The position numbers and the translations under genes were made by a program. Under the pieces are notes generated by a model. That model saw only the letters and a list, made by a program, of their open reading frames with translations, did not search any database and was not told the DNA's origin. Positions 9,551-60,056 of a stretch of 64,000 bases of DNA are shown piece after piece. The number at the start of each line of letters is the position of its first letter. Position 1 is the stretch's first letter. This stretch comes from Candidatus Omnitrophota bacterium (GTDB taxonomy: Bacteria; Omnitrophota; Omnitrophia; Omnitrophales; Aquincolibacteriaceae): positions 191,608 through 255,607 of the forward strand of contig JAYTHE010000002.1 of the NCBI GenBank assembly GCA_043732705.1, given 5' to 3'.

Positions 9551-10120
9551 ATGGAAAAGACAGAAAGGCTTTTTTTAGGGCTGCATCTTGACGCGCTTTT
9601 TCAGAAGCAAGTCGCTGATTTTTCAAAAAAACTGCATGTTCTTTACCCTGACCAAAAGTGGGTCAAGCTTCGCCACTTTCATTTTACGATTCATTTTTTG
9701 GGTGATACGACTGAGGAACAAAAGGAAAAAATTAGAGTTATCGCGAAGGGAGTGGCGGCAGACACAAAGTCTTTTCCCATCGCGCTTGAGGGTATGGGCG
9801 CTTTTCCGAGTTTGATAAAGCCCCGCGTCATTTGGATTGGCGCCGCAGAGGAGTGTAAGAAAAGTCTCTTTGATCTTTATACGCATGTGACACTGCCGCT
9901 TATTGCGAAAGGTTTTCCCGTAGAGCATGAAACATTTACGCCGCATGCCACGCTTTTCCGCGTTCGAGCCGAAAAACCGATTGTCTGGGATACAAACATT
10001 TTCAGTTTTACTAAGACGGAGCCGCGCTTAATTAGCGGGCTCAGTCTTTTTAAGAGTATTCTCGGCACCGATGGTTCGGAATATCAGCCTATAGAAGCGT
10101 TCCCATTTAGAGCGACGTAA
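9551..10120 (+). CDS. thpR: RNA 2',3'-cyclic phosphodiesterase (ThpR/LigT, 2H phosphoesterase)
   Basis: Two H-x-T/S-x motifs (HFTIHFLG and HATLFRV) at the expected spacing for the 2H family. Protein length is about 189 aa. Confidence 0.75.
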   Translation: MEKTERLFLGLHLDALFQKQVADFSKKLHVLYPDQKWVKLRHFHFTIHFLGDTTEEQKEKIRVIAKGVAADTKSFPIALEGMGAFPSLIKPRVIWIGAAEECKKSLFDLYTHVTLPLIAKGFPVEHETFTPHATLFRVRAEKPIVWDTNIFSFTKTEPRLISGLSLFKSILGTDGSEYQPIEAFPFRAT

Positions 10121-15602: not shown

Positions 15603-15855
15603 ATCTCTTGGTGGTGGTTTATGGTTTACCCCTAAAAGGACGATAAAGTAGCATGTGCCTAAATCAACTTGTCATGCCGAAGCCTCGGCGAAGACAGATC
15701 AAATTGTCGCGCCGAAGCTTTGCGATGGCGGATGTATCGCGCCGAAACTTGAGTGTAGGTGGATGGCCTAACACTTGCCCTGAGCAGCGTCGAAGGGGTG
15801 TCCCGTTTCCGAAGTTTGAAGATAGTAGAAGCAGGCTTCTGATGGAGGAAGAGTT

Positions 15856-27359: not shown

Positions 27360-30300
27360 ATGAAAAAACAATCTTCTTTTTTCCGTCGTTTAGTAAGCTT
27401 AGTTACGACACTATTGATTTCTTTTTCAGGAACTCCCGGTTTCTCGGCACCTTCTAGCTCGGATTCTGTCGTGCTTTCTGCGCACGCTTTTTCAAGTTCT
27501 TTAGCTAGTGAAATATTACAAATTCCGCGTCAATTGGGGCGTGTGGAATCTTTTCATGCGGGCAAAGGCAAAACGTTGATTCATATTCAAACCGCGCATG
27601 GCCATTATGAGGCGCAGAAAAAAATCGCCGCAATTTTGCAGGATCTTGAAAATCAATATGGAACAACCACCGTTTTTATTGAAGGCAGCTGGGGGAAACT
27701 TTATCCTGAGATTTTGCGATTTTTCCCTGAAAATCCAAAACTGACGCATGAGTTGAATGACGCCCTCACACATAAGGCGATTGTTAAAGGCGAAGAGCTT
27801 TATTTGATTGATTCGAAAAAAGGTGAAGGCTATGGAATCGAGAATGAACAGGCCTATCTTGAAAACGCAGCGGCATTTGCAAGCGTGGTTAAGGCGCGTG
27901 AAGGCAGTCGGAAATTTTTAACCGCTGCCATGGATGGCATTGAAAAAATTTCAGCCGGTTATTTGAATAATGATTTGCGTGGTTTTTTGCGGCGTGAGGA
28001 GAGCTTTCAAAATGGTGTTACTCCGCTTGATTCTTGGATTGAAGAATTACATAAACAGGTTACAAAGCAGTATGGTCAAGATTTGGCCGACGCTGCCTTT
28101 CAGTTGGAATGGCCCATGCTCGTACGCTATTTTACGATCAAAAAACTTGAATCCTCGATGAATGTTGAAACGCTTGATTCAGAACGGGTTAGTTTTTTAA
28201 AAGAGTTTGATAAAGTCTCTAGTCTCCGGTCTCCAGTCTCCGGTCTCAAGGATTCAATAGAATCCTTGCTGAGCGCCAAAGACGCTAGCCTGGGGTTACA
28301 AGCCGAAATGGTGCAAAGCATTTTTATCCAAATGATGCGAGCCTTGCCCCAGGATTTTGATTACAGTCGCTATCCCAATGTGAAGGCAATGATCGGCATT
28401 TTACTTTTACAAAGTGAGCTTGATGCGCACCTGATGACCGCGGAAATAGAGAAATTAACAAATCTTCTTGCCGGAAAAATGGCAACGCAGGCGACTGAGA
28501 AGCAATTTTTATCGGTTTATCAACGTAAAATTTTGCTTACGAAATTACTTAATTTAGAATTAGCGCCTGATGATTACGAGAAAATTCTCGGGTCTCCGGC
28601 CTCCGGCCTCCGGCCCAGTCATTTATTTTTAGAAATTCAGAAATTAAATACCGAAAACCGTGTCCGTGGAATTGAATTTAAGCATACGGCCGAGTTAGAT
28701 GCGATTTATGAGAAGGCGTTGGCTTTTTATGCGGGTGCGAAAAAGCGTGATCAATATTTAATTGAGAATGTTGAGAAACAAATGGATCAGCTGGGGGTTG
28801 ACAAAGCAGTTGTGATTACGGGTGGTTTCCATGCTGAGCCGTTCCGCAAATACTTTGAAGCGAAAAATTACACTTATGCGCTTCTGATGCCGACTCTTTC
28901 AAGTGTTGATGATAAAGGTCGTGAGGCTTATTTGAATGTTATGAATGAGCAGCTAAAGATTAAAACAAAAACATCTACCGCTAATACAATATCGCCTGCA
29001 ACGCGGGCTGGTGTCTCAACTTTGGAGGCTGGATTAGCTTCTTTGAGTTCGGAGGATGGCAATTTAGCCCTTGCAGGTGTGGAGCGATCAGAATCCCGTC
29101 TTCTATCACTGAGAGCTAAAGCATCGACTTATATTGCGGCTGTATTGTTTGCGTTGTCTTCGGCGTCTCCTGTTTCTGCACAAACACGACGAGTGCTTCC
29201 CGTTGTTCCTTCTGACGCTACAGCGCAACAAGCGGCGTTTGATAAATATATGGAGACAGCTGATGATGGAAAACTAGCCGCGTCGTTTGCCTCTTTTGTG
29301 GAGAAAAAAAATGCCCCTGCTTATTTATTATTTTCATATGCCAAAGCTGCCGCAAAGCAAGGTCGACAAGAAACGGTCGTTAGGCAGCTCGGATTAATAA
29401 TCCAATATTTAGTTGACGCGTATCAATTTAATGAAGCTGATCTTAGAAAAGTTTTAGAGGCGCTTGATTCTAATCCTGAGATCCGTCAAAACAGCGGGGT
29501 GGTTGCTGCTGTTAAATCAATAACGTCACTTGTACCTAAAGAGCTTGTTGGATCGTCGGAGCAGAAGAAAGAAAAACCAGTTGCTTCTGTGATAATAAGG
29601 GCAGAAGGAGGCAAGGGTTTAATTTTAGGACCATCTGAGACGGTTACTGAAAAATCAACAGGTGAAGAAATTAAACTTACCGGAATTCAAAAAGGATCTC
29701 CCGAGGAACTGCTTTTCAATCAGTTTTTTAATGGCGGTGACGTTGTGCAGCCGGGTGGAGTCAATCCAAAGGATGCTTCAAGGGTAAAATTTTCATTACA
29801 GGCATTGGCTCAAATTCACGAGCTTGCACCAGAAAAAAGAGTCCAATTTGTCAAGTCAATGTTCGACTTGTTACCCGCCATGAAGCCGGCATTACCAAAT
29901 GAGAAGGAATTCAAAGAAATAAAAAGAATCACACTAAGTGAATTGGCGAACACTTTTTACTTATTTAAGTTCCCGCCGTCGGCAATTAGTTTTTTTTTAA
30001 ATGAATTGGTCGCCCCCAAAAATAGTTCTCTTGTTGCGGATCCTTTTTTCAGGCCTTATGTATTAGCTTTAGTTTCGGAGTTGGTTGATCAATTGTCCAT
30101 GGACTTACTCGAGTATAAGAAGTGGGCTCAGTCTGTCCTTATAAAAGAATATGAGGTGTTTATCGCCAAATTTGCTGATGATGCGATCCGCAAGGTTTTA
30201 GTAGCGCCTGAGGAAGCGTTAGGTCCCGACACGCGAATGTGGTATATGCGTATGACAGGCGTTCTGTTGAGTGCGCCTAACTTTATTGATCCATTTGTTA

Positions 30301-31451
30301 AGGTCGCACCGCTTGCGCCATCCGTCGGTGGAGGGGACCGAAAATATATTGAGAATAGTAAGGCAGTGGATAGATTTTCACAAATGGTACCTACATCTAG
30401 GCTAAGAAGCTTTATTCTAAATTACTTTGTACTGCAATTCCAAGATAAGGATCTATTGAAAAAAATTTCAAAACGGACAGATCCACGAAAATTCATGCCA
30501 CTTACAACAATAATTAATGCTTTTGTTGTAACTCAGGATCCGAAAGTACTTCAAGAAATGGAAAAAATTTCGACAATCGTAGATTTGCCCGAAAGTTTGC
30601 GAACGGTTGTTGTAGCTAAAATTGTAGAGTTGAAGTTTGGAATTTCACAAAAAAAGGCGAAGGAGAAACGATCTGAGATGCGGGATGCAGTTGCAGATGA
30701 TTTTTTGCTGCCGCAAGGCCCCACGATTGATGTGGCGACGTTGAAACGAATGGCAGAAACATTTAAAGCCGGAATTTATTCCTTGGCGGCGAAGGTAGTT
30801 GCAGGGATGGGTTTTCAGCCTAAGTCACTGATTCTTCCGACCGTAGATTCTATCTTACCGCTTCCGCAAGATGTGTCGAGTTTAGGAGGAAATGTTGTTT
30901 CTATTTTTACGCCTGATAATGCAAAAGCAGAAGCTAAGATCGTCATCGCGCAAAAATTTTCAGCTTTCCCCGAGGCAACATCTGATTTTAAGCAGCTTCT
31001 TTCTTGGGCAAGATATATAGCTAGCCACAAAGGGTTGGTTTGGAGCTTTCAGGTTACACAGTCGCAGGAAGCTTCCGCGAGGAGCTTTCGTCAGATGTTT
31101 TTGCAGCTAGCAAGTCAGAATGGATTGCAAATTTCGCAAAATCAAATTTTTTTGGAACGTGTTCCTGCAGGTGTTTTTAATTTGTCTAAATTTGCCAAGC
31201 TAGACCTCGCCGCGATTGCCCCGGATGCAGCTGTCCTGAGCCCTTTAAATGTGGGCATTAAAGGGCGTGTTATTTTGACAGCAGCTGACGGCATCGATGG
31301 TCTTGCTGCCGGCTTGATCGTTACAGCAGAAGCTTTACTGTCGCCTCTAGGATTTCCTCAAAAGGTGGTTCGTGCAAGTGAGCTGCACCCTTTTGGTTTG
31401 GACTATCAAGCAGTTCTTATGGCCGTAGCTGCGTTTGCAAGAGCTGCATAA
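27360..31451 (+). CDS. Giant secreted protein (1363 aa), function unknown
   Basis: Signal peptide (MKKQSSFFRRLVSLVTTLLISFSGTPGFSA). One uninterrupted ORF with a Rho-independent terminator after it. Two in-frame heptameric repeat blocks. A second hydrophobic segment at about aa 570. Weak GTxH/GxFH resemblance to the TraB/GumN/Tiki fold in the N-terminal 500 aa. Confidence 0.7.
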   Translation: MKKQSSFFRRLVSLVTTLLISFSGTPGFSAPSSSDSVVLSAHAFSSSLASEILQIPRQLGRVESFHAGKGKTLIHIQTAHGHYEAQKKIAAILQDLENQYGTTTVFIEGSWGKLYPEILRFFPENPKLTHELNDALTHKAIVKGEELYLIDSKKGEGYGIENEQAYLENAAAFASVVKAREGSRKFLTAAMDGIEKISAGYLNNDLRGFLRREESFQNGVTPLDSWIEELHKQVTKQYGQDLADAAFQLEWPMLVRYFTIKKLESSMNVETLDSERVSFLKEFDKVSSLRSPVSGLKDSIESLLSAKDASLGLQAEMVQSIFIQMMRALPQDFDYSRYPNVKAMIGILLLQSELDAHLMTAEIEKLTNLLAGKMATQATEKQFLSVYQRKILLTKLLNLELAPDDYEKILGSPASGLRPSHLFLEIQKLNTENRVRGIEFKHTAELDAIYEKALAFYAGAKKRDQYLIENVEKQMDQLGVDKAVVITGGFHAEPFRKYFEAKNYTYALLMPTLSSVDDKGREAYLNVMNEQLKIKTKTSTANTISPATRAGVSTLEAGLASLSSEDGNLALAGVERSESRLLSLRAKASTYIAAVLFALSSASPVSAQTRRVLPVVPSDATAQQAAFDKYMETADDGKLAASFASFVEKKNAPAYLLFSYAKAAAKQGRQETVVRQLGLIIQYLVDAYQFNEADLRKVLEALDSNPEIRQNSGVVAAVKSITSLVPKELVGSSEQKKEKPVASVIIRAEGGKGLILGPSETVTEKSTGEEIKLTGIQKGSPEELLFNQFFNGGDVVQPGGVNPKDASRVKFSLQALAQIHELAPEKRVQFVKSMFDLLPAMKPALPNEKEFKEIKRITLSELANTFYLFKFPPSAISFFLNELVAPKNSSLVADPFFRPYVLALVSELVDQLSMDLLEYKKWAQSVLIKEYEVFIAKFADDAIRKVLVAPEEALGPDTRMWYMRMTGVLLSAPNFIDPFVKVAPLAPSVGGGDRKYIENSKAVDRFSQMVPTSRLRSFILNYFVLQFQDKDLLKKISKRTDPRKFMPLTTIINAFVVTQDPKVLQEMEKISTIVDLPESLRTVVVAKIVELKFGISQKKAKEKRSEMRDAVADDFLLPQGPTIDVATLKRMAETFKAGIYSLAAKVVAGMGFQPKSLILPTVDSILPLPQDVSSLGGNVVSIFTPDNAKAEAKIVIAQKFSAFPEATSDFKQLLSWARYIASHKGLVWSFQVTQSQEASARSFRQMFLQLASQNGLQISQNQIFLERVPAGVFNLSKFAKLDLAAIAPDAAVLSPLNVGIKGRVILTAADGIDGLAAGLIVTAEALLSPLGFPQKVVRASELHPFGLDYQAVLMAVAAFARAA
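28215..28247. repeat. Heptameric tandem repeat, copy 2 (in the giant ORF)
   Basis: GTCTCTAGTCTCCGGTCTCCAGTCTCCGGTCTC. Encodes SLRSPVSGL. Confidence 0.8.
28588..28615. repeat. Heptameric tandem repeat, copy 3 (in the giant ORF)
   Basis: CTCGGGTCTCCGGCCTCCGGCCTCCGGCCC. Encodes GSPASGLRP. Confidence 0.8.
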
Positions 31452-31469: not shown

Positions 31470-31510
31470 AAAACCCCTTTGGCCTTTGTGGCTGAAGGGG
31501 TTTTTTCTTT
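31470..31510 (+). terminator. Rho-independent terminator after the giant ORF
   Basis: AAAACCCCTT-tggcctttgtggctg-AAGGGGTTTT followed by TTTTTTCTTT. Confidence 0.7.
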
Positions 31511-31543
31511 TTACTACGCAAACTACTACGCTATAATTTGGGT

Positions 31544-31605
31544 TTGAAATTAATTCAGATCTTGAGGTGAAAGCCGTTACTTAAAAATAATTCTCTTTTG
31601 GAATT
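31544..31605. repeat. Direct repeat A flanking the fic gene (about 62 bp)
   Basis: TTGAAATTAATTCAGATCTTGAGGTGAAAGCCGTTACTTAAAAATAATTCTCTTTTGGAATT. About 85% identical to 32868-32929. Confidence 0.85.
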
Positions 31606-31790
31606 CTCAATATCCAAAGCTTTATATACCATGAAAAAAGAAATATAAAATTTCAATTTTCATGGTCTTGCTCCTCAGCTTAAGGCCGATCTGGCTTTTA
31701 TGAAAAACTACCATAATCGGCGAGTTGGCGATGGCGGTATCCACTTGACAAAAAACTTGACGAAAACTTGACGTAATTATATTCTCTTAT

Positions 31791-32813
31791 ATGCCTTATT
31801 ATCCTCGATTTAAAATTACTCCACGGCTGCTTGCTCTCATTTCAAAAGTAATTATGTTGAAGACGCGTATTGATCAAAGTGCGGTTCAGCTTTTTGTTTT
31901 TCCTGCACTTTCCCGAGATACATTTGTCAGGCTAGCGCATTCATCTACCGCAATTGAGGGGAACACCTTGTCGCTTCATCAAGTCAGTGAATTAGCAAAG
32001 GGGAAAAAAGTGGATGCAGAGGTAAAACAGAAGACCGAAGTTAAGAACTACTTAAGAGCACTCAAAATGATTTCGGGGTGGAGATCGGGGCGATGTATGA
32101 ACGAGGGCAATCTCCTTAAATTGCATCGTTTATTAATGCTCGGACTTTTGGATTCCGGTAAAGCTGGAAAATATAAGCAAAAGCCAAATCGTGTTATGGG
32201 CCCAAAAGGAGAAACGGTTTACTATCCTCCCTCGCCTGAAAAGTGTGTTGCTTTTGTGAAAGAGATGATTCAGTGGCAAAGCTCAAAGCAAGCCAAAGAA
32301 CTTTCGCCTGTTGTGACGAGCGCTATTCTCCATCATCGCCTGGTTTCGATTCATCCATTTACCGATGGCAACGGACGGATTTCCAGACTTTGGGGACTGG
32401 CTTATTTATTTGCAAGCGAATTTGACGCGCATCATTTATTTGCGCTTGATGAATGCTTTGATTTCGATCGACAGAAGTATTATGACAAAATTCAGCAGGC
32501 ACGAGACCTGGATGATGATTTAACTTTTTGGATTGAGTATATAGCGGAATGTTTGGTTGAGACGCTTGAGAAGACATTGCGGCGTATCGCTCAAATTGCG
32601 ATGAGAAATTTAAAGGGTAAGATCAATATTAATTCAAGGCAGGAGCAAATTTTGAATTTTTTGAATCAGCAAGGAACAGCTAAATCTCCCGATCTAGAGA
32701 AAAAATTTAAATTAACAAGGTCGCGGATTCAGCAGCTGATTAAGCCTTTGGTTGACGCGGGTTTGGTCGAATCTTCAGGGAAGACTCGGGCAACATTTTA
32801 TTTTTTAAAATAG
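31791..32813 (+). CDS. fic: Fic-family protein (Fic/Doc AMPylator-type) with a C-terminal winged-helix domain
   Basis: Canonical Fic motif HPFTDGNGRISRLW. The C-terminal 70 aa have a wHTH-like pattern. Confidence 0.85.
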   Translation: MPYYPRFKITPRLLALISKVIMLKTRIDQSAVQLFVFPALSRDTFVRLAHSSTAIEGNTLSLHQVSELAKGKKVDAEVKQKTEVKNYLRALKMISGWRSGRCMNEGNLLKLHRLLMLGLLDSGKAGKYKQKPNRVMGPKGETVYYPPSPEKCVAFVKEMIQWQSSKQAKELSPVVTSAILHHRLVSIHPFTDGNGRISRLWGLAYLFASEFDAHHLFALDECFDFDRQKYYDKIQQARDLDDDLTFWIEYIAECLVETLEKTLRRIAQIAMRNLKGKININSRQEQILNFLNQQGTAKSPDLEKKFKLTRSRIQQLIKPLVDAGLVESSGKTRATFYFLK

Positions 32814-32867
32814 ACTTTGCTTCGCAATCGAGCTTTTTTTACAGAAATTTTCATAGCTAATTTCAAT

Positions 32868-32929
32868 TTGAAGCTCATTCAGATCTTTTGTTTGAAGCCG
32901 TTACTTAAGAATAATTCTCTTTTGGAATT
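32868..32929. repeat. Direct repeat B flanking the fic gene
   Basis: TTGAAGCTCATTCAGATCTTTTGTTTGAAGCCGTTACTTAAGAATAATTCTCTTTTGGAATT. Confidence 0.85.
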
Positions 32930-32994
32930 TATGCTATAAATAAGCAGTTTTAATTCTATTTAGATAGTTAAATAGATAGAATGATATTGAAATT

Positions 32995-35172
32995 ATGATG
33001 TTTAAAAGCAATGTCTTGGAGAAAAACAGCATTATTAGAAGAGGGTTTTGCCTTTTTGTCATGTTTATTTTTTTTTCCGGGCATGTTTTTGCGGAAGATG
33101 ACACGAAGTTAAAAACGAAAGAGGCAGCGCAGAATTCAGTGACTGCAGCCGATTTAGATCAGGTACAGGCAGATCAGACGGCGAAGAAAGGCTCTTCTGA
33201 ATTACACGACTCTCAAGTAACGACAAAGTCAGAATCTAAGGAGCAGGCAAACGATGTTTCGACGGAAGACGTTGTGTCAACAAGTCAGGTTGATGTAAAT
33301 AAAGCGATGGAACAAACTTTGCAAGAAACCATGATTAAAGAGATCAAGGCCTATTATCCTATTATTCGTGGTATTAGTTTTGAATCGAAGGAAGACTTGC
33401 TTGTTATGAAAATTGATTATGACCAATCATCAGAGACAGATCTTTTGAATATTCAAACCAATTTAATAAAAGGGAAAATGATTGCAGCGATAACTTTTAA
33501 ATCAGCTCTTTTGCAAAAGAAAGAAGATGTGAAGGTTGAGGGTGATCATGAGTTGATTGAGGCGGTGACATTGACGCCCAATCTTGGCTTGTCGTCTAAA
33601 CTTGGAAATGATGAAAAACTTTTTTTTGTGAATCAAGTGCAGTTTCAGCTTTTAAAGCCGGTGCGTTGGAAAGTAACTCAAGTTCCGGGGACTTTAAAAA
33701 TAGAATTTAAGCCTTATTTGGCGGGAGAAGAAGAGGAAGAGAAAAAGCAGAAAGAAGACCTCGTTTTTCAAGCTCCGCCGCCGCAAAACACGCAGCAAAT
33801 TTTAGGCGAAAGCTACACCAGGGAACGGGAATATGAAAGCAATGTGGTTTCAGGCGGTGAGCCGACTTTAATTGAAAGCTTAGAAGGGGGCGAGAGGGCG
33901 GCTTCGCAGCTTTTTGGCCGTGGCATTGTCACGGATTATAGTAAAGGTCTTTCGGAAGAAGCGGTTCGCGTGGACATGAAAAGTCGTTACCCCACTTTCG
34001 GGAGTTTGGATTATTGGAAAAAAAATATAAGCGGTGTGATTTCGAACACAGCTCGTTTTATGAAAAAACAGCGCAAGCAAAGCTTTTTTCCCGTGGATGA
34101 TCCCGGTTTGGCCGTTGTTTTTGACCGCAAGGGTCCTGCACATGTTAGGTTGGGATATAATGTTCAGCGTGAACTCCCGTTTTTTTATGGAACTCTTCAC
34201 CGCACAAAGCGATTAGCACCCATGGATGGGTTCATGCGGCATGATATTAAAGGTGGAGTTGTCTTTAAAAGTCAAAGCCCTTGGATTTATTCTATTCAAA
34301 ATAATTACAGCGTCGGAACAAGTGAGAATTTGAGTCAGCCCTCTAAATTTGGTGACCGACTTTCTGCTTACCAATATGCTGCGGGGCATGGCCTTCGTTA
34401 TAATTTTAAACGGGGTTATGCTCAGTTAGGATCAGGGTTGTTGTGGAGGACGGAGGAGCGCGGCATCAACGAAGATGTTAAAGGTTATATTTCCACGCTA
34501 TGGGTGCGTCCTTGGACTAAAAAAATTACAACACGCTTAGAATATGATTATACGCGCACATTTCTGCATGATCCAAGACCCATTCTCGATGTCAATGTTC
34601 ATAAAATGTATTTTGGATTGGATTATAAGCCGAATAAAAATGTGACTCTTACGCCTAATTTAGGCTGGTCCTTTTATGACGGAGAATCATTCGCAGGGTT
34701 TGTGGGTGGATTTAAATACCGACACAAAATTAATTCGCGTGACAGTGTGACGATAAATTATTCCACGGATTTCATCAGAAGCCAATCGCTTAACTTTGCA
34801 TCAGAATCATTGGCAACCACTCGCGGCACGTTTGGTCCAAGCGATGCATTGGTGCGGTATCAAACCATTTCCGCCGATTTTAATCATCAATTAACCAAAC
34901 GAATTAATTTTAATTTTACAGCAAGTTATCGTCGTGAAAGACAGTTCGAAATTAAGGACAGTGACCGATTGGATGAGTACCGTGTTTCAGCCGGATTAAG
35001 CCGCCAAATTTCAAAAGAATGGGCCTTGCAACTGCGCTACAGCCTTATTTATTTAAATGCTTATCGCATATCGGAGGATACATTAGGAAATAAGGTTAAG
35101 CGAGACGCGGGTAATACGGAGCACAGTGTTGATTTAAGAGTGTTGCGCTATTTTGGTGAAACAGGAAGATAA
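32995..35172 (+). CDS. Putative outer-membrane beta-barrel protein of the polysaccharide export block
   Basis: Signal peptide, an acidic low-complexity N-domain, and a C-terminal 400 aa with alternating-hydrophobic beta-strand periodicity (RYSLIYLNAY, VDLRVLRYF). Sits immediately upstream of a Wza-like gene. Confidence 0.5.
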   Translation: MMFKSNVLEKNSIIRRGFCLFVMFIFFSGHVFAEDDTKLKTKEAAQNSVTAADLDQVQADQTAKKGSSELHDSQVTTKSESKEQANDVSTEDVVSTSQVDVNKAMEQTLQETMIKEIKAYYPIIRGISFESKEDLLVMKIDYDQSSETDLLNIQTNLIKGKMIAAITFKSALLQKKEDVKVEGDHELIEAVTLTPNLGLSSKLGNDEKLFFVNQVQFQLLKPVRWKVTQVPGTLKIEFKPYLAGEEEEEKKQKEDLVFQAPPPQNTQQILGESYTREREYESNVVSGGEPTLIESLEGGERAASQLFGRGIVTDYSKGLSEEAVRVDMKSRYPTFGSLDYWKKNISGVISNTARFMKKQRKQSFFPVDDPGLAVVFDRKGPAHVRLGYNVQRELPFFYGTLHRTKRLAPMDGFMRHDIKGGVVFKSQSPWIYSIQNNYSVGTSENLSQPSKFGDRLSAYQYAAGHGLRYNFKRGYAQLGSGLLWRTEERGINEDVKGYISTLWVRPWTKKITTRLEYDYTRTFLHDPRPILDVNVHKMYFGLDYKPNKNVTLTPNLGWSFYDGESFAGFVGGFKYRHKINSRDSVTINYSTDFIRSQSLNFASESLATTRGTFGPSDALVRYQTISADFNHQLTKRINFNFTASYRRERQFEIKDSDRLDEYRVSAGLSRQISKEWALQLRYSLIYLNAYRISEDTLGNKVKRDAGNTEHSVDLRVLRYFGETGR

Positions 35173-35190
35173 TTAATTAAGGAGGAATCA

Positions 35191-35793
35191 ATGAACTATA
35201 AAAAATTAATAGCATGCTTGATGATCATGGGCTTAACCTTTTCAGGGTGGGCTGCTGAGAAAAATCAATCCGAAGGTGTTCGGGCTGTTACCGCTGTTTC
35301 GCAGCGCGGTCTCCGTGTAGGTGACACGTTAAATATTACGGTGTGGCAGCACAAGGATCTGAGTACCACGCTTGTGGTTGATGAAGGTGGCAATATTGAA
35401 TATTTATTTTTGGGTGTTATCCCTGTTGCAGGAAAGACACTCACAGAAGTGAAGGAAATTTTGAAAAAGGGAATTTCTGATAATTACATTGTTGATCCCA
35501 AAGTTGATATTTCTATGGATCGTAAGTCGCTGACATTTTTTGTGACAGGAGAAGTGCTCAAGCCCGGAACTTATGAGTTTCATCCCGGCGTATCCGTTTT
35601 AGAGGCGATTGCTTTGGCGGGAGGTTTTACTGACTACGCTTCGCGTAAAATTAAAGTGATTCGGAAAACTGGGGATGGAAAAGAAAAGGAAATCAAAATA
35701 AATACCAAAAAACTTCTTCGCGCGACAGACAAGCGTGAGGAGTCGAGAGTTCAAGTGGATGACATTCTCGTGGTGGAGCGGGCTTGGTGGTAA
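35191..35793 (+). CDS. Polysaccharide export protein (Wza-like, Poly_export plus SLBB domains)
   Basis: Lipoprotein-like signal, LRVGDTLNITVW (the PES motif region), and a soluble-ligand-binding beta-grasp segment (FVTGEVLKPGTYEFHPGVSVLEAIALAGG). Confidence 0.75.
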   Translation: MNYKKLIACLMIMGLTFSGWAAEKNQSEGVRAVTAVSQRGLRVGDTLNITVWQHKDLSTTLVVDEGGNIEYLFLGVIPVAGKTLTEVKEILKKGISDNYIVDPKVDISMDRKSLTFFVTGEVLKPGTYEFHPGVSVLEAIALAGGFTDYASRKIKVIRKTGDGKEKEIKINTKKLLRATDKREESRVQVDDILVVERAWW

Positions 35794-35815
35794 GGAAGGG
35801 TATTCGAAATAAAAT

Positions 35816-37774
35816 TTGCCTATGATTAATTCTAAGATTTTATATCAATGTTTTAGGGTTTGGATTCTGCCGGTATTTCTTCTTTTAGCGGGAGCGGCGA
35901 CTTTTTTTTATTGGGCTGAAAGCCAGATGCGAGTTCCGGGTGGGCTTCGGGACATTGAATATTGGCAAGCTGCGATGTTATCCACCAATGCCGCTGGTGA
36001 CTTAAAGCCGCTTTCTGGCTATTTACACCAGCGCGTGGCGGAAATGGTAGCGGAGCCCAAACATAATCGCGAAAGTGTTTTTATTTTTGGATTCATGGAC
36101 CGCATTCTTCAAGAGGCAAAGCCGCTTCGAAAAATTTCCGACCTGAAGTATGCGCTATTGGTTTATAAGCAGCAGCTTTTTCTTGCCGCTCCATCTGCCT
36201 TAAGATTGTATTTTTCAATCCGCCATCTTTTAGGTGCGGATAAACTGAATGGGGATATGGGGCAAGATCTCATTTCAGAATCGGATCTGAGGCTTGAGAA
36301 ATTGGTGCATTTGAAAGAGATCGAGAAGATAGGGGGGCTTCCGGCTTTGCGAGCTTTTTTTGAAAAAATGTTAGTGAGCCCTGAATTTTCTCATTTTCAA
36401 GCGCCTGTTATGTTGGATTTGGCCTTTTTTCTTTATGAAAAAGATCCTTCCGAAGCGAGCAGATTGATTGATCGTTTGAATAAAAAAAAGCCCAATTATG
36501 CAGTTCGCCATGCGGCGGCTTATTTACGGAACAAATTGATACAAAAAAGGGCTTTAGATGAAAAGCATTTCAAATCGTCTGAACTTGAAATCGAAAATCT
36601 TTTCAAAATGGGTTTATTTGAACGCACCGCTCAAAGACTGAATGTTGGTAAAAGTCCGCTTTTTTCAAAACAAATGCAGGCAATGCAAAGCTGGCTTGGT
36701 TTGGGAGGTAGTCTGGTTTCAAGCGACAAACAGTCTTTGCTGGCGATCTATTACGGTATTCTTTCGGAGGCTCTTAAGGATCCCTCCGCTGCGTCAGACC
36801 AATTGGTTAAACTTGCGGAAGATAACAACTCTGCTGCATACAGCGCTCTTTTGCGGTATCAGGCTTGGAGTTTGGCCTATTTTGATGCAAAGAGTTATAG
36901 CCGCGCCTTTTTTATTGCTGAGTTTTTAAAATTAAGTGACCCATTAAGTCCGTACAGTCAGCTTGAGTTAGTCAAAGGAATGTTCCGACTTTCCTCTAAA
37001 AGTTTTACCGGCTCAAAATTACTGCAGGCTTGGCAGGAGGAGCCGTATCGTTTTGACATGATTCGTAAAGACAATTGGGGTGGTTTTAAAGAAGGTAAAA
37101 ATCGCAAAAGCGAAATAACAGTTCACGAGGGGCGCGTTTATGTTGTGAAATATAATGAATCCGGACAAGCCGAAATATTGCAAGAAGTTGGCGCAGGTGA
37201 ACGCGTGTCAGATCAAAGGGCGGGAGAGGAGGATTTAAAGGAGCCGGTTAAAATGGGGTGGATGGACCAGTTTTTTTATAGCGCAATGATGAAATTTATC
37301 CCGTTGGGAATTCGAACGTTTAAAGAACAAATTGCTAAGCCGGCACAAAATCTTAAAAAATCAGTTTTTACGCGTTTATATAAGCAGGAAGAGTTTCAGG
37401 TTTTTGTTCTCGATAAAATACGCCCCTCTTTAGGGGGCGCTGTTCAGGCGATGCAGGCTCAGATTAATGAGCAAGGCTTCAGCATTTATTCCGTTTTTAA
37501 TCTTAAACTGGTCACCCTTGCAGTTTCGGGTTTAGGCAAGCTAAAAGCCAATGAGGATGGGCGATTGATCTTGAAACTGGATCATGTTAGAGTCGCAAAA
37601 GTTTATCTTCCGAAATGGCTTTTGAAGCGTGTGGAAAAGAGTTTTAATTTGTCAGCCAATTCAGAGGGGGCATCCGAAACAGCTCAAATTGATATTCTTG
37701 ATATGCAATATCAATCCGGCGGCATTTTGATTCGGTGTCGGAAAAAGTCATTTCAAGCGACCACGATTGTCTAA
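35816..37774 (+). CDS. Hypothetical protein (652 aa) with an N-terminal TM helix, inside the export block
   Basis: Uninterrupted ORF between the Wza-like and Wzc-like genes. No known motif. Confidence 0.5.
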   Translation: MPMINSKILYQCFRVWILPVFLLLAGAATFFYWAESQMRVPGGLRDIEYWQAAMLSTNAAGDLKPLSGYLHQRVAEMVAEPKHNRESVFIFGFMDRILQEAKPLRKISDLKYALLVYKQQLFLAAPSALRLYFSIRHLLGADKLNGDMGQDLISESDLRLEKLVHLKEIEKIGGLPALRAFFEKMLVSPEFSHFQAPVMLDLAFFLYEKDPSEASRLIDRLNKKKPNYAVRHAAAYLRNKLIQKRALDEKHFKSSELEIENLFKMGLFERTAQRLNVGKSPLFSKQMQAMQSWLGLGGSLVSSDKQSLLAIYYGILSEALKDPSAASDQLVKLAEDNNSAAYSALLRYQAWSLAYFDAKSYSRAFFIAEFLKLSDPLSPYSQLELVKGMFRLSSKSFTGSKLLQAWQEEPYRFDMIRKDNWGGFKEGKNRKSEITVHEGRVYVVKYNESGQAEILQEVGAGERVSDQRAGEEDLKEPVKMGWMDQFFYSAMMKFIPLGIRTFKEQIAKPAQNLKKSVFTRLYKQEEFQVFVLDKIRPSLGGAVQAMQAQINEQGFSIYSVFNLKLVTLAVSGLGKLKANEDGRLILKLDHVRVAKVYLPKWLLKRVEKSFNLSANSEGASETAQIDILDMQYQSGGILIRCRKKSFQATTIV

Positions 37775-37791
37775 AAAGTTAAAGGATATTT

Positions 37792-39837
37792 ATGCCTTCT
37801 TCGCATGAAGAAGATAATTCAGATGTTAATTTAGAGGTCGATGATTTAGGGCCGGTGTGGAAACGTTTTTCCAAGCTTTTAGTGCGTTTCTATCCCATGG
37901 TTTTAATTTATATTACCGCGCTTTCATTGGGAACGGGAGTTTGGGCACAGCTTCAAACGCCTCTTTTCCAAGCCGTTGCCACTATTTTGGTGGATCCCAC
38001 CCTTGTTTCGAATAGCGCAGAAAAGCAAAGTCTTGAAAACCTTGCTTTGCAGGCAACTCTTATCGAGAGCCCCGGAGTCCTGAATCGCGTGATTGACCGT
38101 TATAACTTAAGTTCCATTTATCCTTTCAATAAATCAGATAATGCAATGGCGATGCTGCAGGATCAAATGACAGTCAAGCCGAACAGCAAGAGCAAAACGA
38201 TTGAAATCAGTTTTCTTTTTATTTCCGGAGAAGAAGCGGCAAAAATTGCCAATGCCATTGCCGAAACTTACGTTTATTCCAGTGAGGAAAAGAGTCAAGG
38301 CACGACCCAAGAGTCGCTTGCTTCGCTTCAGCTTAATTTTGCTCAGGAAATGGCAAAGCAAGAAGAAGTTAAAGCTAAGATCGAAGAGTTTAAAAAACAA
38401 TTTCCAGAAATGGAAGATGAGACGAGTGATGCTAAGCAGGTTGAGTATTTTAAGTCAGAGCTGGCGAAGTCAGACGCGCAATTAATCGATCTGCGAACTA
38501 AAATTCTTGAAATCGAACAATACAAAAAAGATAATGGGACGATTTATAATCATCCCTATATTCTCGAAGATACCGTGATTGTGCGTCAAATGGAGCGGCT
38601 TCGGCGTGCGGAAAGTGACCTCGAAGAATTAAAGCGCCAATTCCGCGATATGCATCCCGATGTGATTTCAGCCCAGGCGCGCTTTGACAGTTTAAAAAAA
38701 TCAATGGAACAGGATCAAGAGCATGTTTATGTGCAGTTGAAACTGGAGCTTAAGACCCTTGAATCCACTCGCGAAAGAATGAAGGAGCAGCTTACGCAAC
38801 TTAAAGGGGATTCAAGAAAATTTGATCCGCAGAAAATGAAGCTTAAAAGCTTGTTGTCCGAAGATGAAGCTATCGGAAAAACAATTAAATTAATTCAAGA
38901 CCGGATGTCGGTGGCTTCAGTCGAGGGCGGATTGAAACGGCCCGGCGTTGAAATCCTGAACCGTGCGAAAGCTCCGGAAACTTCCTACTGGCCCAATAAG
39001 CCTAAATTAATTGGCGGCGCGGTTATTTTGGGATTGGTTTCAAGTCTCGGGCTTTTTTTTCTTTATTGCTATTTTGACCGCTCAATTCGAACTTACGAAG
39101 ATGTTGAGCTTGTCACCGGAAAGCTTTTCTTGGGAGATTTGCATTTTGCAAAAGTAAAAAAAGGTTTGCTTTACCCTGAGTTTCCAAATGATAAGTCGTT
39201 TATTTTGTTTACGCACGGTCTGCGGCTGATCGCGACGAATATTGAATTTGTGTTGTCCGACCGGCATCAGAAATGTGTTCTTTTTACAAGCGCCATTCCG
39301 GGCGAAGGAAAGAGTTTTGTTTCTTTTCATATCGCGCAGTCCATGGCACGCCAAGGGAAAAAAGTCATTTTGATCGATGCCGATTTTTGCCAATCGTCCC
39401 TGAGAGATAAAATTCCAAGAACGGAATGTGAAACTTATTTACAAGAGTATTTGTCGGGAAGCGCCGAGATCGGCGACATTATCGAGGGCACAGATAATGA
39501 GCTTATTCACTTTATCCGTTCAGGCAGCCGGTCTTCGTTTAGCGCGCCGCATGCCTTAAAGTCAAATCGCATGAAAGATTTAATAACTGTGCTAAAAGAA
39601 AATTACGATTACATTTTAATTGATACGCCGCCGGTTTTGCCGGTCAATGATACTTTAGCGTTAAGCACATTGGTAGACATGCGAGTGATTGTTGTGCGTT
39701 GGGGTTCGACGCATCGTGATTTAGTTCGGAAAGCAGTAGCGAAAATTTCTCCGGGACAACTCATTCTCGGAGGAATTGTTTTGAATCAAGTCAAAGAGAC
39801 GAATGAAAAAGGCTACCATATATATCGGCCCAACTAA
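37792..39837 (+). CDS. Polysaccharide co-polymerase / BY-kinase (Wzc/GumC-like)
   Basis: An N-terminal Wzz-like TM domain and a long coiled coil, then a C-terminal P-loop ATPase (Walker A' FTSAIPGEGKSFVS, Walker B ILIDTPPVLPVNDT) typical of CpsD/Wzc tyrosine kinases. Confidence 0.8.
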   Translation: MPSSHEEDNSDVNLEVDDLGPVWKRFSKLLVRFYPMVLIYITALSLGTGVWAQLQTPLFQAVATILVDPTLVSNSAEKQSLENLALQATLIESPGVLNRVIDRYNLSSIYPFNKSDNAMAMLQDQMTVKPNSKSKTIEISFLFISGEEAAKIANAIAETYVYSSEEKSQGTTQESLASLQLNFAQEMAKQEEVKAKIEEFKKQFPEMEDETSDAKQVEYFKSELAKSDAQLIDLRTKILEIEQYKKDNGTIYNHPYILEDTVIVRQMERLRRAESDLEELKRQFRDMHPDVISAQARFDSLKKSMEQDQEHVYVQLKLELKTLESTRERMKEQLTQLKGDSRKFDPQKMKLKSLLSEDEAIGKTIKLIQDRMSVASVEGGLKRPGVEILNRAKAPETSYWPNKPKLIGGAVILGLVSSLGLFFLYCYFDRSIRTYEDVELVTGKLFLGDLHFAKVKKGLLYPEFPNDKSFILFTHGLRLIATNIEFVLSDRHQKCVLFTSAIPGEGKSFVSFHIAQSMARQGKKVILIDADFCQSSLRDKIPRTECETYLQEYLSGSAEIGDIIEGTDNELIHFIRSGSRSSFSAPHALKSNRMKDLITVLKENYDYILIDTPPVLPVNDTLALSTLVDMRVIVVRWGSTHRDLVRKAVAKISPGQLILGGIVLNQVKETNEKGYHIYRPN

Positions 39838-39989: not shown

Positions 39990-41324
39990 ATGAACGGAAT
40001 CTCTAGGCGAAGCCTGTTTCTTTTAATTTTAGATTGTATCGCGATGCTGCTTGCGTTTCAGTTGACGGCTTATTGGCTTTATCACCGCGAATTCGGAGTT
40101 TGCGTCAAGCCCGAGATGATGGCGGTGAGTTTTTTTACTTATCCGCTTTTTTTCTATATTTTTGACTTGTATTTTCCATTTAAGTATTACCGCCCCGCTA
40201 AATCGATTATTGATATTGCGTTGGCCAGTGCTTGCGCGGTTGTCGTGGTTTCGACGCTGTGTGCCTTTAACCGCAGCCTCGCGATGCCGCGTCTTTTTTT
40301 TATTGCCGTTAATTTGGTTTTTGTTCCGGGCGTACTTATTGTACGGTTGGTATACGACGTTCTTTTTCAGGCGCGAATGGTCGATAAAAAAACACTTATC
40401 ATCGGTACGGGGGCTTTGGCTCAAACGATTACGCAGGTGATTCATAAGACCCCGCATTCAGGCATTGAGTTGGTTGGTTTGGTTTCGGAGCAAGGCACGG
40501 CAGTTCAGCCCGGCTCGCCGATTCCTGTTGTAGGAAACATTTCACAGCTTCTTAGCTTGATTGATTGGTATCACGTTCAGCTTGTTGTTTTGGCGATTGA
40601 CGCGAAAAGTAAAAGCTCCGAGCCGGAACTGATGCTGGCTTTGATGCGTCAAAAGGTGCAAGTAACAAGCGCAATCCACTTATTTGAAAAGCTGGACGAA
40701 GCGATTCCTTATGATGGAGTGAACGAGCATTTTATTCTTGCGCTTATGTCGGAAGTGCGCAGTCTGCGTTATTTGCATGTGAAACGCATTTTTGATATCG
40801 GAATTGTGAGTGCATTGCTCCTGTTATTTTCTCCCGTGATGCTTTTGGCATATCTTTTTCTTTTTTTTCAGGGACCTAAGACAGTTTTCTTTTTGCAAGA
40901 CAGGATTGGAATCAATGGAAAAATTTTTAAGATGATTAAGTTTCGCACCATGACGCGCCCGGATTCCGCGGGGCGTCAGCGCGTGACAGGCGTCGGGAAA
41001 TGGCTGAGAAAATTTCGTGTCGATGAAACGCCCCAGCTTCTGAATATTTTGAAAGGGGATATGAGCTTGATCGGCCCGCGGCCTGAAATTAGCTATTTTG
41101 TGGAAAAATGCCACAAAATTATACCTTATTATGACGCTGTTTTTTCAGTGCGCCCGGGAATTACGGGCTGGGCCCAAGTTAAGTTTTTGCATACCACGGA
41201 AATGAAAGATTACCCCCGTAAATTTTGTTACAACCTTTTTTATCTGAAAAATCTTTCGTTCTCGCTTGATTTTCTGATTGTGCTTAAAACGATTCGCGTT
41301 GTTTTGCTGGGAAAGGGAAAGTAG
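39990..41324 (+). CDS. Undecaprenyl-phosphate sugar phosphotransferase (WbaP/EpsL bacterial sugar transferase)
   Basis: KRIFDIGIVSALLLLFSPVML ... GPKTVFFLQDRIGINGKIFKMIKFRTM ... DMSLIGPRPE is the Bac_transf signature. Confidence 0.85.
   Translation: MNGISRRSLFLLILDCIAMLLAFQLTAYWLYHREFGVCVKPEMMAVSFFTYPLFFYIFDLYFPFKYYRPAKSIIDIALASACAVVVVSTLCAFNRSLAMPRLFFIAVNLVFVPGVLIVRLVYDVLFQARMVDKKTLIIGTGALAQTITQVIHKTPHSGIELVGLVSEQGTAVQPGSPIPVVGNISQLLSLIDWYHVQLVVLAIDAKSKSSEPELMLALMRQKVQVTSAIHLFEKLDEAIPYDGVNEHFILALMSEVRSLRYLHVKRIFDIGIVSALLLLFSPVMLLAYLFLFFQGPKTVFFLQDRIGINGKIFKMIKFRTMTRPDSAGRQRVTGVGKWLRKFRVDETPQLLNILKGDMSLIGPRPEISYFVEKCHKIIPYYDAVFSVRPGITGWAQVKFLHTTEMKDYPRKFCYNLFYLKNLSFSLDFLIVLKTIRVVLLGKGK

Positions 41325-58608: not shown

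Positions 58609-60056
<1,448 letters not shown>

What the first reader, a model, noticed from the sequence alone, without database searches (positions are those of the whole stretch)
31544..32929. Fic-domain gene bracketed by roughly 62-bp direct repeats between polysaccharide biosynthesis and export blocks
Two copies (about 85% identical) of TTGAA ... ATTCAGATCTT ... GAAGCCGTTACTTAA.AATAATTCTCTTTTGGAATT lie 184 bp upstream and 55 bp downstream of a canonical Fic gene (HPFTDGNGR) that has a C-terminal wHTH domain. The downstream copy is 66 bp upstream of the outer-membrane protein gene. Together with the giant secreted ORF, the Fic gene interrupts an otherwise coherent polysaccharide biosynthesis-to-export gene order. 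The repeats could be duplicated promoter/operator modules (a shared regulator site), or the footprint of a cassette insertion, with one repeat copy now preceding the OMP gene.
Basis: seen in the sequence. Interest (0 to 1): 0.55.

Follow-up and report, generated by a model that had tools for sequence, protein, structure and literature searches.

The report
Duplicated export-operon promoter flanking fic
The two 72-bp repeats are copies of the conserved promoter module of a polysaccharide-export operon in an uncultured Omnitrophota bacterium: one copy is the native promoter, the other lies upstream of an accessory fic gene that has its own promoter, which makes this a tidy but fairly ordinary case of locus rearrangement.

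Summary
Copies at 31534-31605 and 32858-32929 are 83% identical over 72 nt, are the only two in the window, and recur in an independent assembly. Copy 2 is not a mobile repeat. It is the upstream half of a promoter region conserved in front of the 725-aa OMP / Wza / Wzc export operon in all seven related lineages found. That region has a bipartite element, T..AGTT(T/C)-N11-GCCGTTA(A/C), which matches the sigma-28 consensus TAAAGTTT-N11-GCCGATAA in spacing and in 10-14 of 16 positions. An extended -10 (TGCTATAAAT) follows 27-28 nt later. The repeat includes the bipartite element but not the TGCTATAAAT. R1/R2 mismatches avoid both octamers (0/8, 0/8) and pile up in the spacer (5/11), which suggests both copies are constrained as promoters. 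fic (class II Fic plus wHTH) is accessory. It is absent from a probable close relative that has the giant ORF directly followed by the OMP gene, decayed in another, and present without an upstream repeat in a third. It carries its own deeply conserved triple-TTGAC promoter/operator. The giant ORF belongs to the locus and is not an interruption. Verdict: a duplicated promoter module at a recombination-prone junction. It is a new member of a known kind and of modest interest.

The parts
27360..31451 (+). Giant ORF (1363 aa, signal-peptide-like N-terminus, no Pfam domain). It is a conserved member of the locus, not an insertion.
   Evidence: A homologue of 1212 aa sits at the same position in L003 (59% identity over 575 aa, then 28% over the C-terminal 614 aa). 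A C-terminal remnant is present in L009.
31470..31504 (+). Strong intrinsic terminator of the giant ORF (15-bp stem, T-tract).
31510..31537 (+). Sigma-70-like site TTTACT-N16-TATAAT (10/12) abutting copy 1. Its function is unknown, and the equivalent before copy 2 has a 14-nt spacer.
   Evidence: and the alignment.
31534..31605 (+). Repeat copy 1 (R1): a duplicate of the export-operon promoter module, without the TGCTATAAAT element.
31554..31580 (+). R1 bipartite element: TTCAGATC (-35-like), an 11-nt spacer, GCCGTTAC (-10-like).
   Evidence: Both octamers are identical to R2, and the spacer differs at 5 of 11 positions.
31606..31742 (+). Unique 137-nt spacer containing a 9-bp-stem hairpin (about 31630-31666). 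No detectable relative anywhere.
   Evidence: sequence.
31745..31785 (+). fic's own promoter/operator: three direct TTGAC(A/G) repeats at 11-12 nt phasing. The second repeat is the -35 (TTGACG-N17-TATTCT), and the ATG follows about 6 nt after the -10.
   Evidence: It is identical over 42 nt in L009 and conserved in L011, L012, L023 and L024.
31791..32813 (+). fic: class II Fic AMP-transferase-type protein with a C-terminal wHTH (340 aa).
32858..32929 (+). Repeat copy 2 (R2): the native upstream part of the export-operon promoter.
32878..32904 (+). R2 bipartite element: TTCAGATC, N11, GCCGTTAC. It is orthologous to T..AGTT(T/C)-N11-GCCGTTAA in six other lineages and resembles the sigma-28 consensus.
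32932..32941 (+). TGCTATAAAT, an extended -10 (sigma-70-type) element 27-28 nt after the GCCGTTA octamer. It is conserved in all lineages and absent from R1.
32953..32982 (+). Leader inverted repeat TTCTATTT...AAATAGAA between the -10 and the OMP start codon. It is shared with L003 and L008 only.
32995..35172 (+). 725-aa probable beta-barrel outer-membrane protein, the first gene of the export block.
35191..39837 (+). Rest of the export block: a Wza-like gene (Poly_export/SLBB), a 652-aa ORF and a Wzc-like P-loop protein.

Best explanation
The repeat unit is the promoter module of the polysaccharide-export operon (OMP, Wza, 652-aa ORF, Wzc) of an Omnitrophota bacterium. Copy 2 is the native one. 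It carries a bipartite element, T..AGTT(T/C)-N11-GCCGTTA(A/C), that looks like a sigma-28-class (group 3 alternative sigma) promoter, and a sigma-70-type extended -10 (TGCTATAAAT) follows immediately. Copy 1 duplicates only the bipartite element and its flanks. It arose within this lineage by recombination at the junction between the variable biosynthesis block and the conserved export block. An accessory fic gene, with its own autoregulated-looking promoter, also sits at that junction. Shown: copy 2 is orthologously conserved; fic is accessory; the fic module boundaries differ from the repeat boundaries; the duplication is lineage-specific. Inferred: the bipartite element is a promoter for an alternative sigma factor. 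Also inferred: copy 1 is still active, so fic, and possibly read-through into the export genes, receives the same regulatory input as the export operon in addition to fic's own promoter. The duplication mechanism could not be resolved. Candidates are a single-crossover (Campbell-type) insertion of a circle carrying fic plus one repeat, or a tandem duplication followed by deletion.
For: Once per locus, always directly upstream of the OMP gene, all seven independent lineages carry G[CA]CGTTA[AC]-N27-28-GCTATA[AT][AT]T. Anchored alignment shows conserved octamers (mean 5.6/7 and 6.6/7) separated by a non-conserved spacer of fixed 11-nt length (4.0/7), with an unconserved upstream flank (3.6/7). 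The octamers match the sigma-28 consensus TAAAGTTT-n11-GCCGATAA (consensus taken from PMC2859248) at 14/16 in L003, 13/16 in L006 and L008, 12/16 in L007, 11/16 in L004 and L009, and 10/16 in the window. A match of 14/16 or better is expected 0.2 times per shuffled window. R1 versus R2 mismatches: upstream 6/20, -35 0/8, spacer 5/11, -10 0/8, downstream 1/25. The probability that all five mismatches within the 27-nt core fall in the spacer is 0.006. R1 and R2 are far closer to each other (32/33 core, 28/40 upstream) than to any outgroup (at most 25/33 and 16/40). The strict motif occurs nowhere else in the lineage DNA held. fic is accessory: L003 has giant ORF, a 326-nt intergenic region, then OMP, with no fic, and is probably a close relative (a DapL 93% identical lies on a contig of the same length). 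L006 has only a fic 5' remnant. L009/L010 have fic without an upstream repeat. fic has its own promoter, conserved down to Fic proteins only 50% identical. The locus is mosaic next to fic: versus L010, Fic is 81% identical, Wza 52% and OMP 42%. L009 shows a second, independent case of an accessory gene bracketed by a 126-nt, 85%-identical duplication of local sequence.
Against: There are no transcription-start data. The window's own copies are the poorest match to the sigma-28 consensus (10/16), and in every lineage a T replaces the A of the CGA core that matters for sigma-28 (established knowledge, not tested here). Whether this genome encodes a sigma-28-family factor could not be checked. 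The fixed 27-28 nt distance to TGCTATAAAT fits equally well with a single sigma-70 extended -10 promoter whose upstream conserved blocks are activator or UP-like sites. The mismatch-placement statistics are post hoc and rest on only 12 mismatches, and gene conversion between the copies could give a similar pattern. Copy 1 lies 137 nt upstream of fic's own promoter, and fic functions elsewhere without it (L009, L011, L012, L023, L024), so copy 1 may be dispensable.
Confidence: 0.55

Rival explanations
1. Passive recombination scar. Copy 2 is the working promoter region and copy 1 is a non-functional leftover of the event that placed or reshuffled fic at this junction. It lacks the TGCTATAAAT -10 and is on its way to decay.
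For: The similarity ends at or within the -10 element, which only copy 2 has. At variable positions copy 2 agrees with the outgroups (TAAGAA; CTTTTGTTTG compared with L004's CTTTGTTTG) while copy 1 has the derived states. fic has its own promoter. L009 has fic in the same place without a copy 1. L009 also shows a comparable duplication, one copy of which is clearly a dead pseudogene fragment with an in-frame stop.
Against: The mismatches are not spread evenly. Both octamers and the 25 nt downstream are almost untouched (1 mismatch in 41 nt) while the spacer and upstream flank have 11 in 31 nt. Neutral decay of a redundant copy would not be expected to give that pattern.
Confidence: 0.27
2. Shared transcription-factor operator rather than a sigma-factor promoter. 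The conserved blocks are binding sites for an activator or repressor that works on the sigma-70 extended -10 promoter TGCTATAAAT. The copy upstream of fic is a second operator, for example for co-regulation or DNA looping.
For: There is a fixed N27-28 spacing between GCCGTTA and TGCTATAAAT in all lineages. TGn-TATAAA is a good extended -10 in 5 of 7 lineages. The short palindrome AGAATAATTCT overlaps the -35 position in copy 2 (sequence).
Against: A bipartite conserved motif with a non-conserved spacer of fixed 11 nt, matching a known sigma consensus at up to 14/16, is more typical of a promoter than of a transcription-factor site. The palindrome is not conserved in other lineages or in copy 1. 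Copy 1 has no adjacent -10 to act on.
Confidence: 0.13
3. Attachment-site-type repeats of a small mobile cassette (attL/attR of an integrative element, an integron cassette, or a Xer-dependent module), with fic as cargo.
For: Direct repeats flank a 1.3-kb accessory gene that occurs in several unrelated contexts.
Against: No recombinase lies between or beside the repeats. The fic module shared between loci ends at 31743 and 32818, not at the repeats. Other fic loci have no such repeats. Copy 2 is orthologous to sequence in fic-free relatives. The unit has no attC-like or dif-like symmetry and no significant fold. There are no close phage or viral relatives.
Confidence: 0.03
4. A member of a genome-wide intergenic repeat family (REP/MITE-like) that happens to have two copies here.
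For: None beyond the existence of two copies. The full source genome could not be searched.
Against: There are only two copies in 64 kb. No real match turned up among 185,579 species-representative genomes; the single hit is a chance 21-mer inside an ORF. There are no terminal inverted repeats. Copy 2 is positionally conserved in relatives.
Confidence: 0.02

Closest known systems
Sigma-28 (FliA/SigD/WhiG-class) promoters, consensus TAAAGTTT-N11-GCCGATAA
   Same: Bipartite octamers with the same 11-nt spacing. In relatives, 12-14 of 16 positions match, including the GCCG and TAA of the -10 and the AGTT of the -35.
   Different: An invariant T replaces the A of the CGA core. The window's copies match only 10/16. 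The gene served is a polysaccharide-export operon, not a flagellar or chemotaxis gene. No sigma-28 gene could be shown for this genome.
Conserved regulatory regions at the head of polysaccharide operons (for example JUMPStart/ops upstream of capsule and O-antigen clusters in enterobacteria)
   Same: A short sequence conserved across strains at the boundary between variable biosynthesis genes and conserved genes of a surface-polysaccharide locus, and a likely anchor for recombination (from established knowledge of those loci).
   Different: There is no ops motif (GGCGGTAG) in the repeat. The element here looks like a promoter rather than a transcribed antitermination signal. No NusG/RfaH paralogue was seen among the window ORFs examined.
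Autoregulated Fic-wHTH proteins (CccR of Yersinia pseudotuberculosis; SoFic of Shewanella oneidensis)
   Same: Class II Fic domain plus a C-terminal wHTH. A conserved repeat element overlaps the gene's own promoter, as with CccR's operator near -35/-10 (PMC9755527) and SoFic binding within 100 bp upstream of its start codon (bioRxiv 10.64898/2026.07.09.737422).
   Different: The candidate operator here is three direct TTGAC repeats at 11-12 nt phasing, not CccR's inverted repeats spaced by 26 bp. Binding has not been tested. The closest solved structure is 4RGL (E = 4.8e-27), not CccR or SoFic.
Campbell-type (single-crossover) insertions and tandem-duplication scars that leave direct repeats of host sequence around an inserted gene
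   Same: An accessory gene is bracketed by imperfect direct copies of local host sequence and no recombinase is present. A second example lies in a related locus, L009.
   Different: The mechanism is inferred only. No circular intermediate or donor has been identified.

Membership tests
Sigma-28-class promoter | -35 octamer close to TAAAGTTT | tested here: inconclusive
   Matches are 7/8 in L003, 6/8 in L004, L006 and L008, 5/8 in L007, and 4/8 in L009 and in both window copies. Positions T1, A4, G5, T6 and T7 are conserved within the lineage.
Sigma-28-class promoter | 11-nt spacer between the octamers | tested here: met
   Exactly 11 nt in all seven lineages and in both window copies.
Sigma-28-class promoter | -10 octamer GCCGATAA including the CGA core | tested here: not met
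   The octamer is GCCGTTAA (7/8) in five lineages, GCCGTTAC in the window and GACGTTAC in L004. The A of CGA is T in every case. It is therefore filed as 'sigma-28-like', not as a member.
Sigma-28-class promoter | A sigma-28-family sigma factor encoded by the organism, and a transcript start 5-10 nt downstream of the -10 | not testable with these tools
   The source genome is not among the searchable species representatives. No sigma factor was found among the window ORFs scanned. No expression data are available.
Sigma-70 extended -10 promoter | TGnTATAAT-like element at a suitable distance from the start codon | tested here: met
   TGCTATAAA(T) is present in the window, L006, L008 and L009, and as TGCTATATT in L007. 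L003 and L004 have GCTATAAAT without the TG. The element lies 45-90 nt before the ATG. It is present only after copy 2.
Class II Fic protein (AMP-transferase type with intramolecular inhibitory helix) | Active-site motif HPFx[D/E]GN[G/K]R | tested here: met
   HPFTDGNGR is present. Pfam Fic 1.1e-17, 65.1 bits against a cut-off of 24.
Class II Fic protein (AMP-transferase type with intramolecular inhibitory helix) | Inhibitory motif [S/T]xxxE[G/N] N-terminal to the Fic core | tested here: met
   STAIEGN lies at residues 51-57 and aligns with SLAIENN of 4RGL.
Fic-wHTH autoregulators (CccR/SoFic type) | C-terminal winged-helix DNA-binding domain | tested here: met
   MarR_2 (25.3 bits, just under the cut-off of 27), HTH_27, TrmB and HTH_5 hits at residues 274-337.
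Fic-wHTH autoregulators (CccR/SoFic type) | Binding of the protein to its own promoter | not testable with these tools
   Only indirect evidence: a triple TTGAC repeat overlapping the promoter is conserved from 81% down to 50% Fic identity.
Integrative element att sites / integron cassette | A recombinase (integrase) associated with the repeats, and repeats that coincide with the ends of the mobile unit | tested here: not met
   There is no recombinase ORF between or next to the repeats. The shared fic module is 31743-32818, well inside the repeats. Other fic loci lack the repeats.
REP/MITE-type dispersed repeat | Many copies per genome, with terminal inverted repeats or a stable hairpin | tested here: not met
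   Two copies in 64 kb, no inverted termini and fold z-scores of -0.5 to +0.7. The whole genome could not be searched.
JUMPStart/ops element | ops sequence GGCGGTAG in the transcribed leader of a polysaccharide operon | tested here: not met
   The repeat has no ops sequence. A lone GGCGGTAT at 31732-31739 in the spacer is a 7/8 match of a kind expected several times by chance in 64 kb (my estimate).
Wzx/Wzy-dependent polysaccharide locus with Wza/Wzc-type export | Wzy polymerase, priming sugar transferase, OPX (Poly_export + SLBB) and PCP-type P-loop protein | tested here: met
   Wzy_C (20879-22186), Bac_transf (39990-41324), Poly_export/SLBB (35191-35793) and AAA_31/CbiA (37792-39837).

The most novel reading that the evidence does not exclude
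In this Omnitrophota lineage, a sigma-28-family alternative sigma factor with altered -10 specificity (CGTTAA instead of CGATAA) controls export of a surface polysaccharide. Duplication of that promoter module has wired an AMPylating Fic-wHTH regulator into the same regulon. The two repeat copies could additionally let fic pop out and re-insert by homologous recombination, making fic a homology-mobilised cassette at a hotspot. The 126-nt duplication around a different accessory gene in L009 would be a second instance.
Probability: 0.15. Interest if true: 0.5.

Novelty: new member of a known kind. Interest (0 to 1): 0.3.

Why it matters
It gives a concrete, testable promoter architecture for a phylum with no genetics: a sigma-28-like bipartite element followed by an extended -10. 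It shows that the boundary between the variable biosynthesis genes and the conserved export genes of this polysaccharide locus is a recombination-prone site where accessory genes accumulate (Fic, a toxin-antitoxin pair, an AAA_14 ATPase). It also yields a well-conserved candidate operator for a widespread Fic-wHTH family, for which DNA targets have so far been reported for only a few members (CccR, SoFic). None of this overturns current understanding. It is a clean annotation result rather than a discovery of a new kind of system.

Tried and rejected
- RNA element: Rfam gave no relevant match around the repeats in evalue mode (its one match, a viral pseudoknot model at E=0.36 inside the OMP ORF, is chance) and nothing in the whole window in gathering mode. 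Neither strand of either copy folds better than shuffles. Rejected.
- Dispersed repeat: the core has no further copy in the window. The one genome-collection scan found only a chance 21-mer inside an ORF of a Sumerlaeota MAG. This also showed that the source genome is not among the species representatives, so a genome-wide count was impossible.
- Mobile fic cassette traced by its promoter: the 30-mer of the fic promoter found nothing in the metagenome collection. A 19-mer found nine contigs, none encoding Fic; they are simple ACTTGACGAAA-type repeats.
- Phage origin: phage records hold only distant Fic relatives (26% identity or less), and viral contigs hold none.
- Foreign composition: fic has GC 41.4% and GC3 39.3%, no different from its neighbours.
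- Tandem duplication that included the OMP leader: the 137-nt spacer (31606-31742) is unrelated to the OMP leader, to either flank, or to any relative's intergenic region.
- Fic regulating the cluster through further TTGAC-repeat sites: there are none above chance in the window.
- NusG/RfaH-type or sigma-factor genes in the window: none among the ORFs scanned.
- A third promoter of the same type at 57803: it lies inside an ORF with no gene to serve and is probably chance.
- Structure of the 725-aa protein: the model was too poor (pLDDT 48) to justify a fold search.
Full report
OBSERVATION. The two copies exist as described. The repeat finder reports 31534-31605 and 32858-32929, 72 nt, 83% identical, 1324 nt apart. 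The 33-nt core occurs only at these two places in the window, against zero matches in 100 shuffles. A Logan contig assembled independently is identical to the window over 21,023 nt, including both copies, so the arrangement is not an assembly artefact. Between the copies lies a 340-aa class II Fic protein with a C-terminal winged helix (Pfam Fic 1.1e-17; HPFTDGNGR; inhibitory motif STAIEGN). The surroundings are a Wzy-dependent polysaccharide locus. Upstream are Wzy, a methyltransferase, several GT4 glycosyltransferases and an acetyltransferase, followed by a 1363-aa ORF. Downstream are a 725-aa ORF, a Wza-like gene, a 652-aa ORF, a Wzc-like gene and the priming transferase.

ORGANISM. The LL-diaminopimelate aminotransferase in the window has its best named relatives (87%, 85%, 75% identity) in Candidatus Omnitrophota MAGs. 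The source genome is not among the species representatives of the genome collection.

SYNTENY. The 725-aa protein is lineage-specific, with only five other clusters at 46-62% identity plus a 42% homologue found through fic. Their contigs give seven independent versions of the locus.
- L003 has Wzy, GTs, a 1212-aa homologue of the giant ORF (59% identity over the first 575 residues), a 326-nt intergenic region, then OMP and Wza. It has no fic. A DapL 93% identical to the window's lies on a Logan contig of exactly L003's contig length. L003 is therefore probably a close relative with a positionally orthologous locus; this is an inference and was not verified directly.
- L004, L007 and L008 have a biosynthesis gene directly upstream of the OMP gene, with neither fic nor the giant ORF.
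- L006 has a remnant of the fic 5' end, 85% identical over 114 nt (77% over 39 aa), directly upstream of its OMP promoter. What looks like an insertion-sequence end at the contig start precedes it.
- L009/L010 have a full fic (81% identical) directly upstream of the OMP gene. A 130-aa C-terminal remnant of the giant ORF precedes it (E = 4e-30 against L003's giant ORF), and further upstream are an AAA_14/DUF4143 ATPase and a ParE-like toxin.
So the giant ORF belongs to the locus, and fic is an accessory gene found at this junction in three of seven lineages.

WHAT COPY 2 IS. Every lineage has G[CA]CGTTA[AC]-N27-28-GCTATA[AT][AT]T exactly once, always just upstream of the OMP start. Alignment anchored on GCCGTTA shows two conserved octamers separated by a non-conserved spacer of fixed 11 nt. 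The mean count of the commonest base out of 7 sequences is 5.6 and 6.6 for the octamers, 4.0 for the spacer and 3.6 for the upstream flank. The consensus T..AGTT(T/C)-N11-GCCGTTAA has the spacing of the sigma-28 consensus TAAAGTTT-n11-GCCGATAA (consensus checked in PMC2859248) and most of its bases. Scores are 14/16 in L003, 13/16 in L006 and L008, 12/16 in L007, 11/16 in L004 and L009, and 10/16 in the window; a score of 14/16 or better is expected 0.2 times in a shuffled window. The deviation is systematic: a T replaces the A of the CGA core everywhere. I therefore call it sigma-28-like and do not file it as a member. The second conserved block, TGCTATAAAT, is a good sigma-70 extended -10. 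The repeat unit covers the flank, both octamers and the next 25 nt, and it ends at or just inside the TGCTATAAAT, which only copy 2 has. The strict bipartite motif occurs nowhere else in the lineage DNA held.

WHAT COPY 1 IS. R1 and R2 are much closer to each other (32/33 in the core, 28/40 upstream) than either is to any outgroup (at most 25/33 and 16/40). The duplication therefore happened within the window's own lineage. The 12 mismatches are distributed as 6/20 upstream, 0/8 in the -35 octamer, 5/11 in the spacer, 0/8 in the -10 octamer and 1/25 downstream. Given five mismatches in the 27-nt core, the chance that all fall in the spacer is 0.006. That mirrors the between-lineage conservation profile. 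It is what one expects if both copies have been kept as promoters, although gene conversion and the small numbers are real caveats. Where the copies differ, copy 2 tends to agree with the outgroups, consistent with copy 2 being the original.

THE fic MODULE. Nucleotide similarity between the window and L009 runs from 31743 to 32818 only (79%), that is, from the start of fic's own promoter to 5 nt past the stop codon. The 42 nt CTTGACAAAAAACTTGACGAAAACTTGACGTAATTATATTCT are identical in L009. The element is conserved in L011, L012 and L023 (Fic about 62% identical, in unrelated contexts such as a response regulator, ORF6N or YceI). It is also conserved in L024 (Fic 50% identical, housekeeping context). 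The second TTGAC repeat is the -35 of a TTGACG-N17-TATTCT promoter. Fic-wHTH proteins are known to bind and repress their own promoters: CccR (PMC9755527) and SoFic (bioRxiv 10.64898/2026.07.09.737422). So this is most simply an autoregulatory operator. fic therefore does not need copy 1, and the repeats are not the ends of a fic cassette. The 137 nt between copy 1 and the fic promoter resemble nothing.

HOW THE DUPLICATION AROSE (inferred). This junction is mosaic. Against L010, Fic is 81% identical, but Wza is 52% and OMP 42%. L009 shows an independent parallel: the AAA_14 gene is bracketed by two 126-nt copies (85% identical) of the 3' end of the giant ORF, and one of them is a dead fragment with an in-frame stop. 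Either a single-crossover insertion of a circle carrying fic plus one promoter copy, or a tandem duplication followed by deletion, would produce R1-spacer-fic-R2. I could not discriminate between them.

REJECTED. The region matches no relevant RNA family or fold. It is not a dispersed repeat as far as testable. There is no recombinase, attC-like symmetry or dif-like symmetry. It is not phage-derived, not compositionally foreign, and has no ops element.

VERDICT. The feature is a duplicated promoter module at a recombination-prone junction of a polysaccharide locus, next to an accessory, self-regulated fic gene. It is a new member of a known kind. Interest is about 0.3, mostly for the sigma-28-like promoter in Omnitrophota and the conserved Fic operator.

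Noticed in passing
window 31745-31785; L009 2507-2548; L011 about 1345-1392; L012 about 1813-1857; L023 1745-1791; L024 3948-3985: Three direct TTGAC(A/G)(A/T)AA repeats at 11-12 nt phasing overlap the promoter of this Fic-wHTH family. They are identical over 42 nt at 81% Fic identity and still recognisable at 50% identity in another lineage. This is a candidate autoregulatory operator for the wHTH domain. In the window and L009 the ATG lies about 6 nt after the -10, so the mRNA may be leaderless.
   Followed up: partly
L009 440-565 and 2265-2390: A second example of an accessory gene (AAA_14/DUF4143 ATPase) bracketed by long direct repeats (126 nt, 85% identical) that are copies of local sequence, here the 3' end of the giant ORF. 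The upstream copy is a pseudogene fragment with an in-frame stop.
   Followed up: partly
L006 1-215: A remnant of the fic 5' end (residues 16-54) sits upstream of the OMP promoter. A probable insertion-sequence end at the contig start abuts it; a minus-strand ORF there begins MGKQRFKEEQI, resembling an IS3-family transposase N-terminus from memory.
   Followed up: no
window 32953-32982; L003 about 9960-9989; L008 about 413-442: A conserved inverted repeat TTCTATTT...AAATAGAA lies in the OMP 5' leader (hairpin z-scores -2.1 to -2.9). It is present in three of seven lineages only and lies outside the repeat unit.
   Followed up: partly
window 15620-15646: TATGGTTT-N11-GACGATAA matches the canonical sigma-28 consensus at 13/16. 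It lies in the intergenic region about 210 nt upstream of the first biosynthesis gene (pyruvyl transferase, 15856), on the same strand. There is no comparative support, and about two such matches are expected by chance in the window.
   Followed up: no
window 27360-31451 and L003 6036-9674: The giant secreted ORF has a well-conserved N-terminal domain of about 560 aa (59% identity) and a fast-evolving C-terminal half (28%). It has no Pfam domain. It is a lineage-specific component of the polysaccharide locus with unknown function.
   Followed up: no
window 61315-62988: An MNIO-family (BufB-like) RiPP maturase is fused to an HvfC-like RRE domain (NCBIfam 1.8e-105), suggesting a bufferin-type RiPP locus at the end of the window.
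   Followed up: no
window 58010-58609: A 600-nt stretch with no ORF of 120 aa or more and no Rfam match lies between a HAD hydrolase gene and hemB.
   Followed up: no
window 31791-32813 versus L010; window 32995-35793 versus L010: Divergence is strongly discordant across adjacent genes: Fic 81% identical, Wza 52% (partial) and OMP 42%. This indicates a recombination breakpoint or very different evolutionary rates right at the fic/export boundary.
   Followed up: partly
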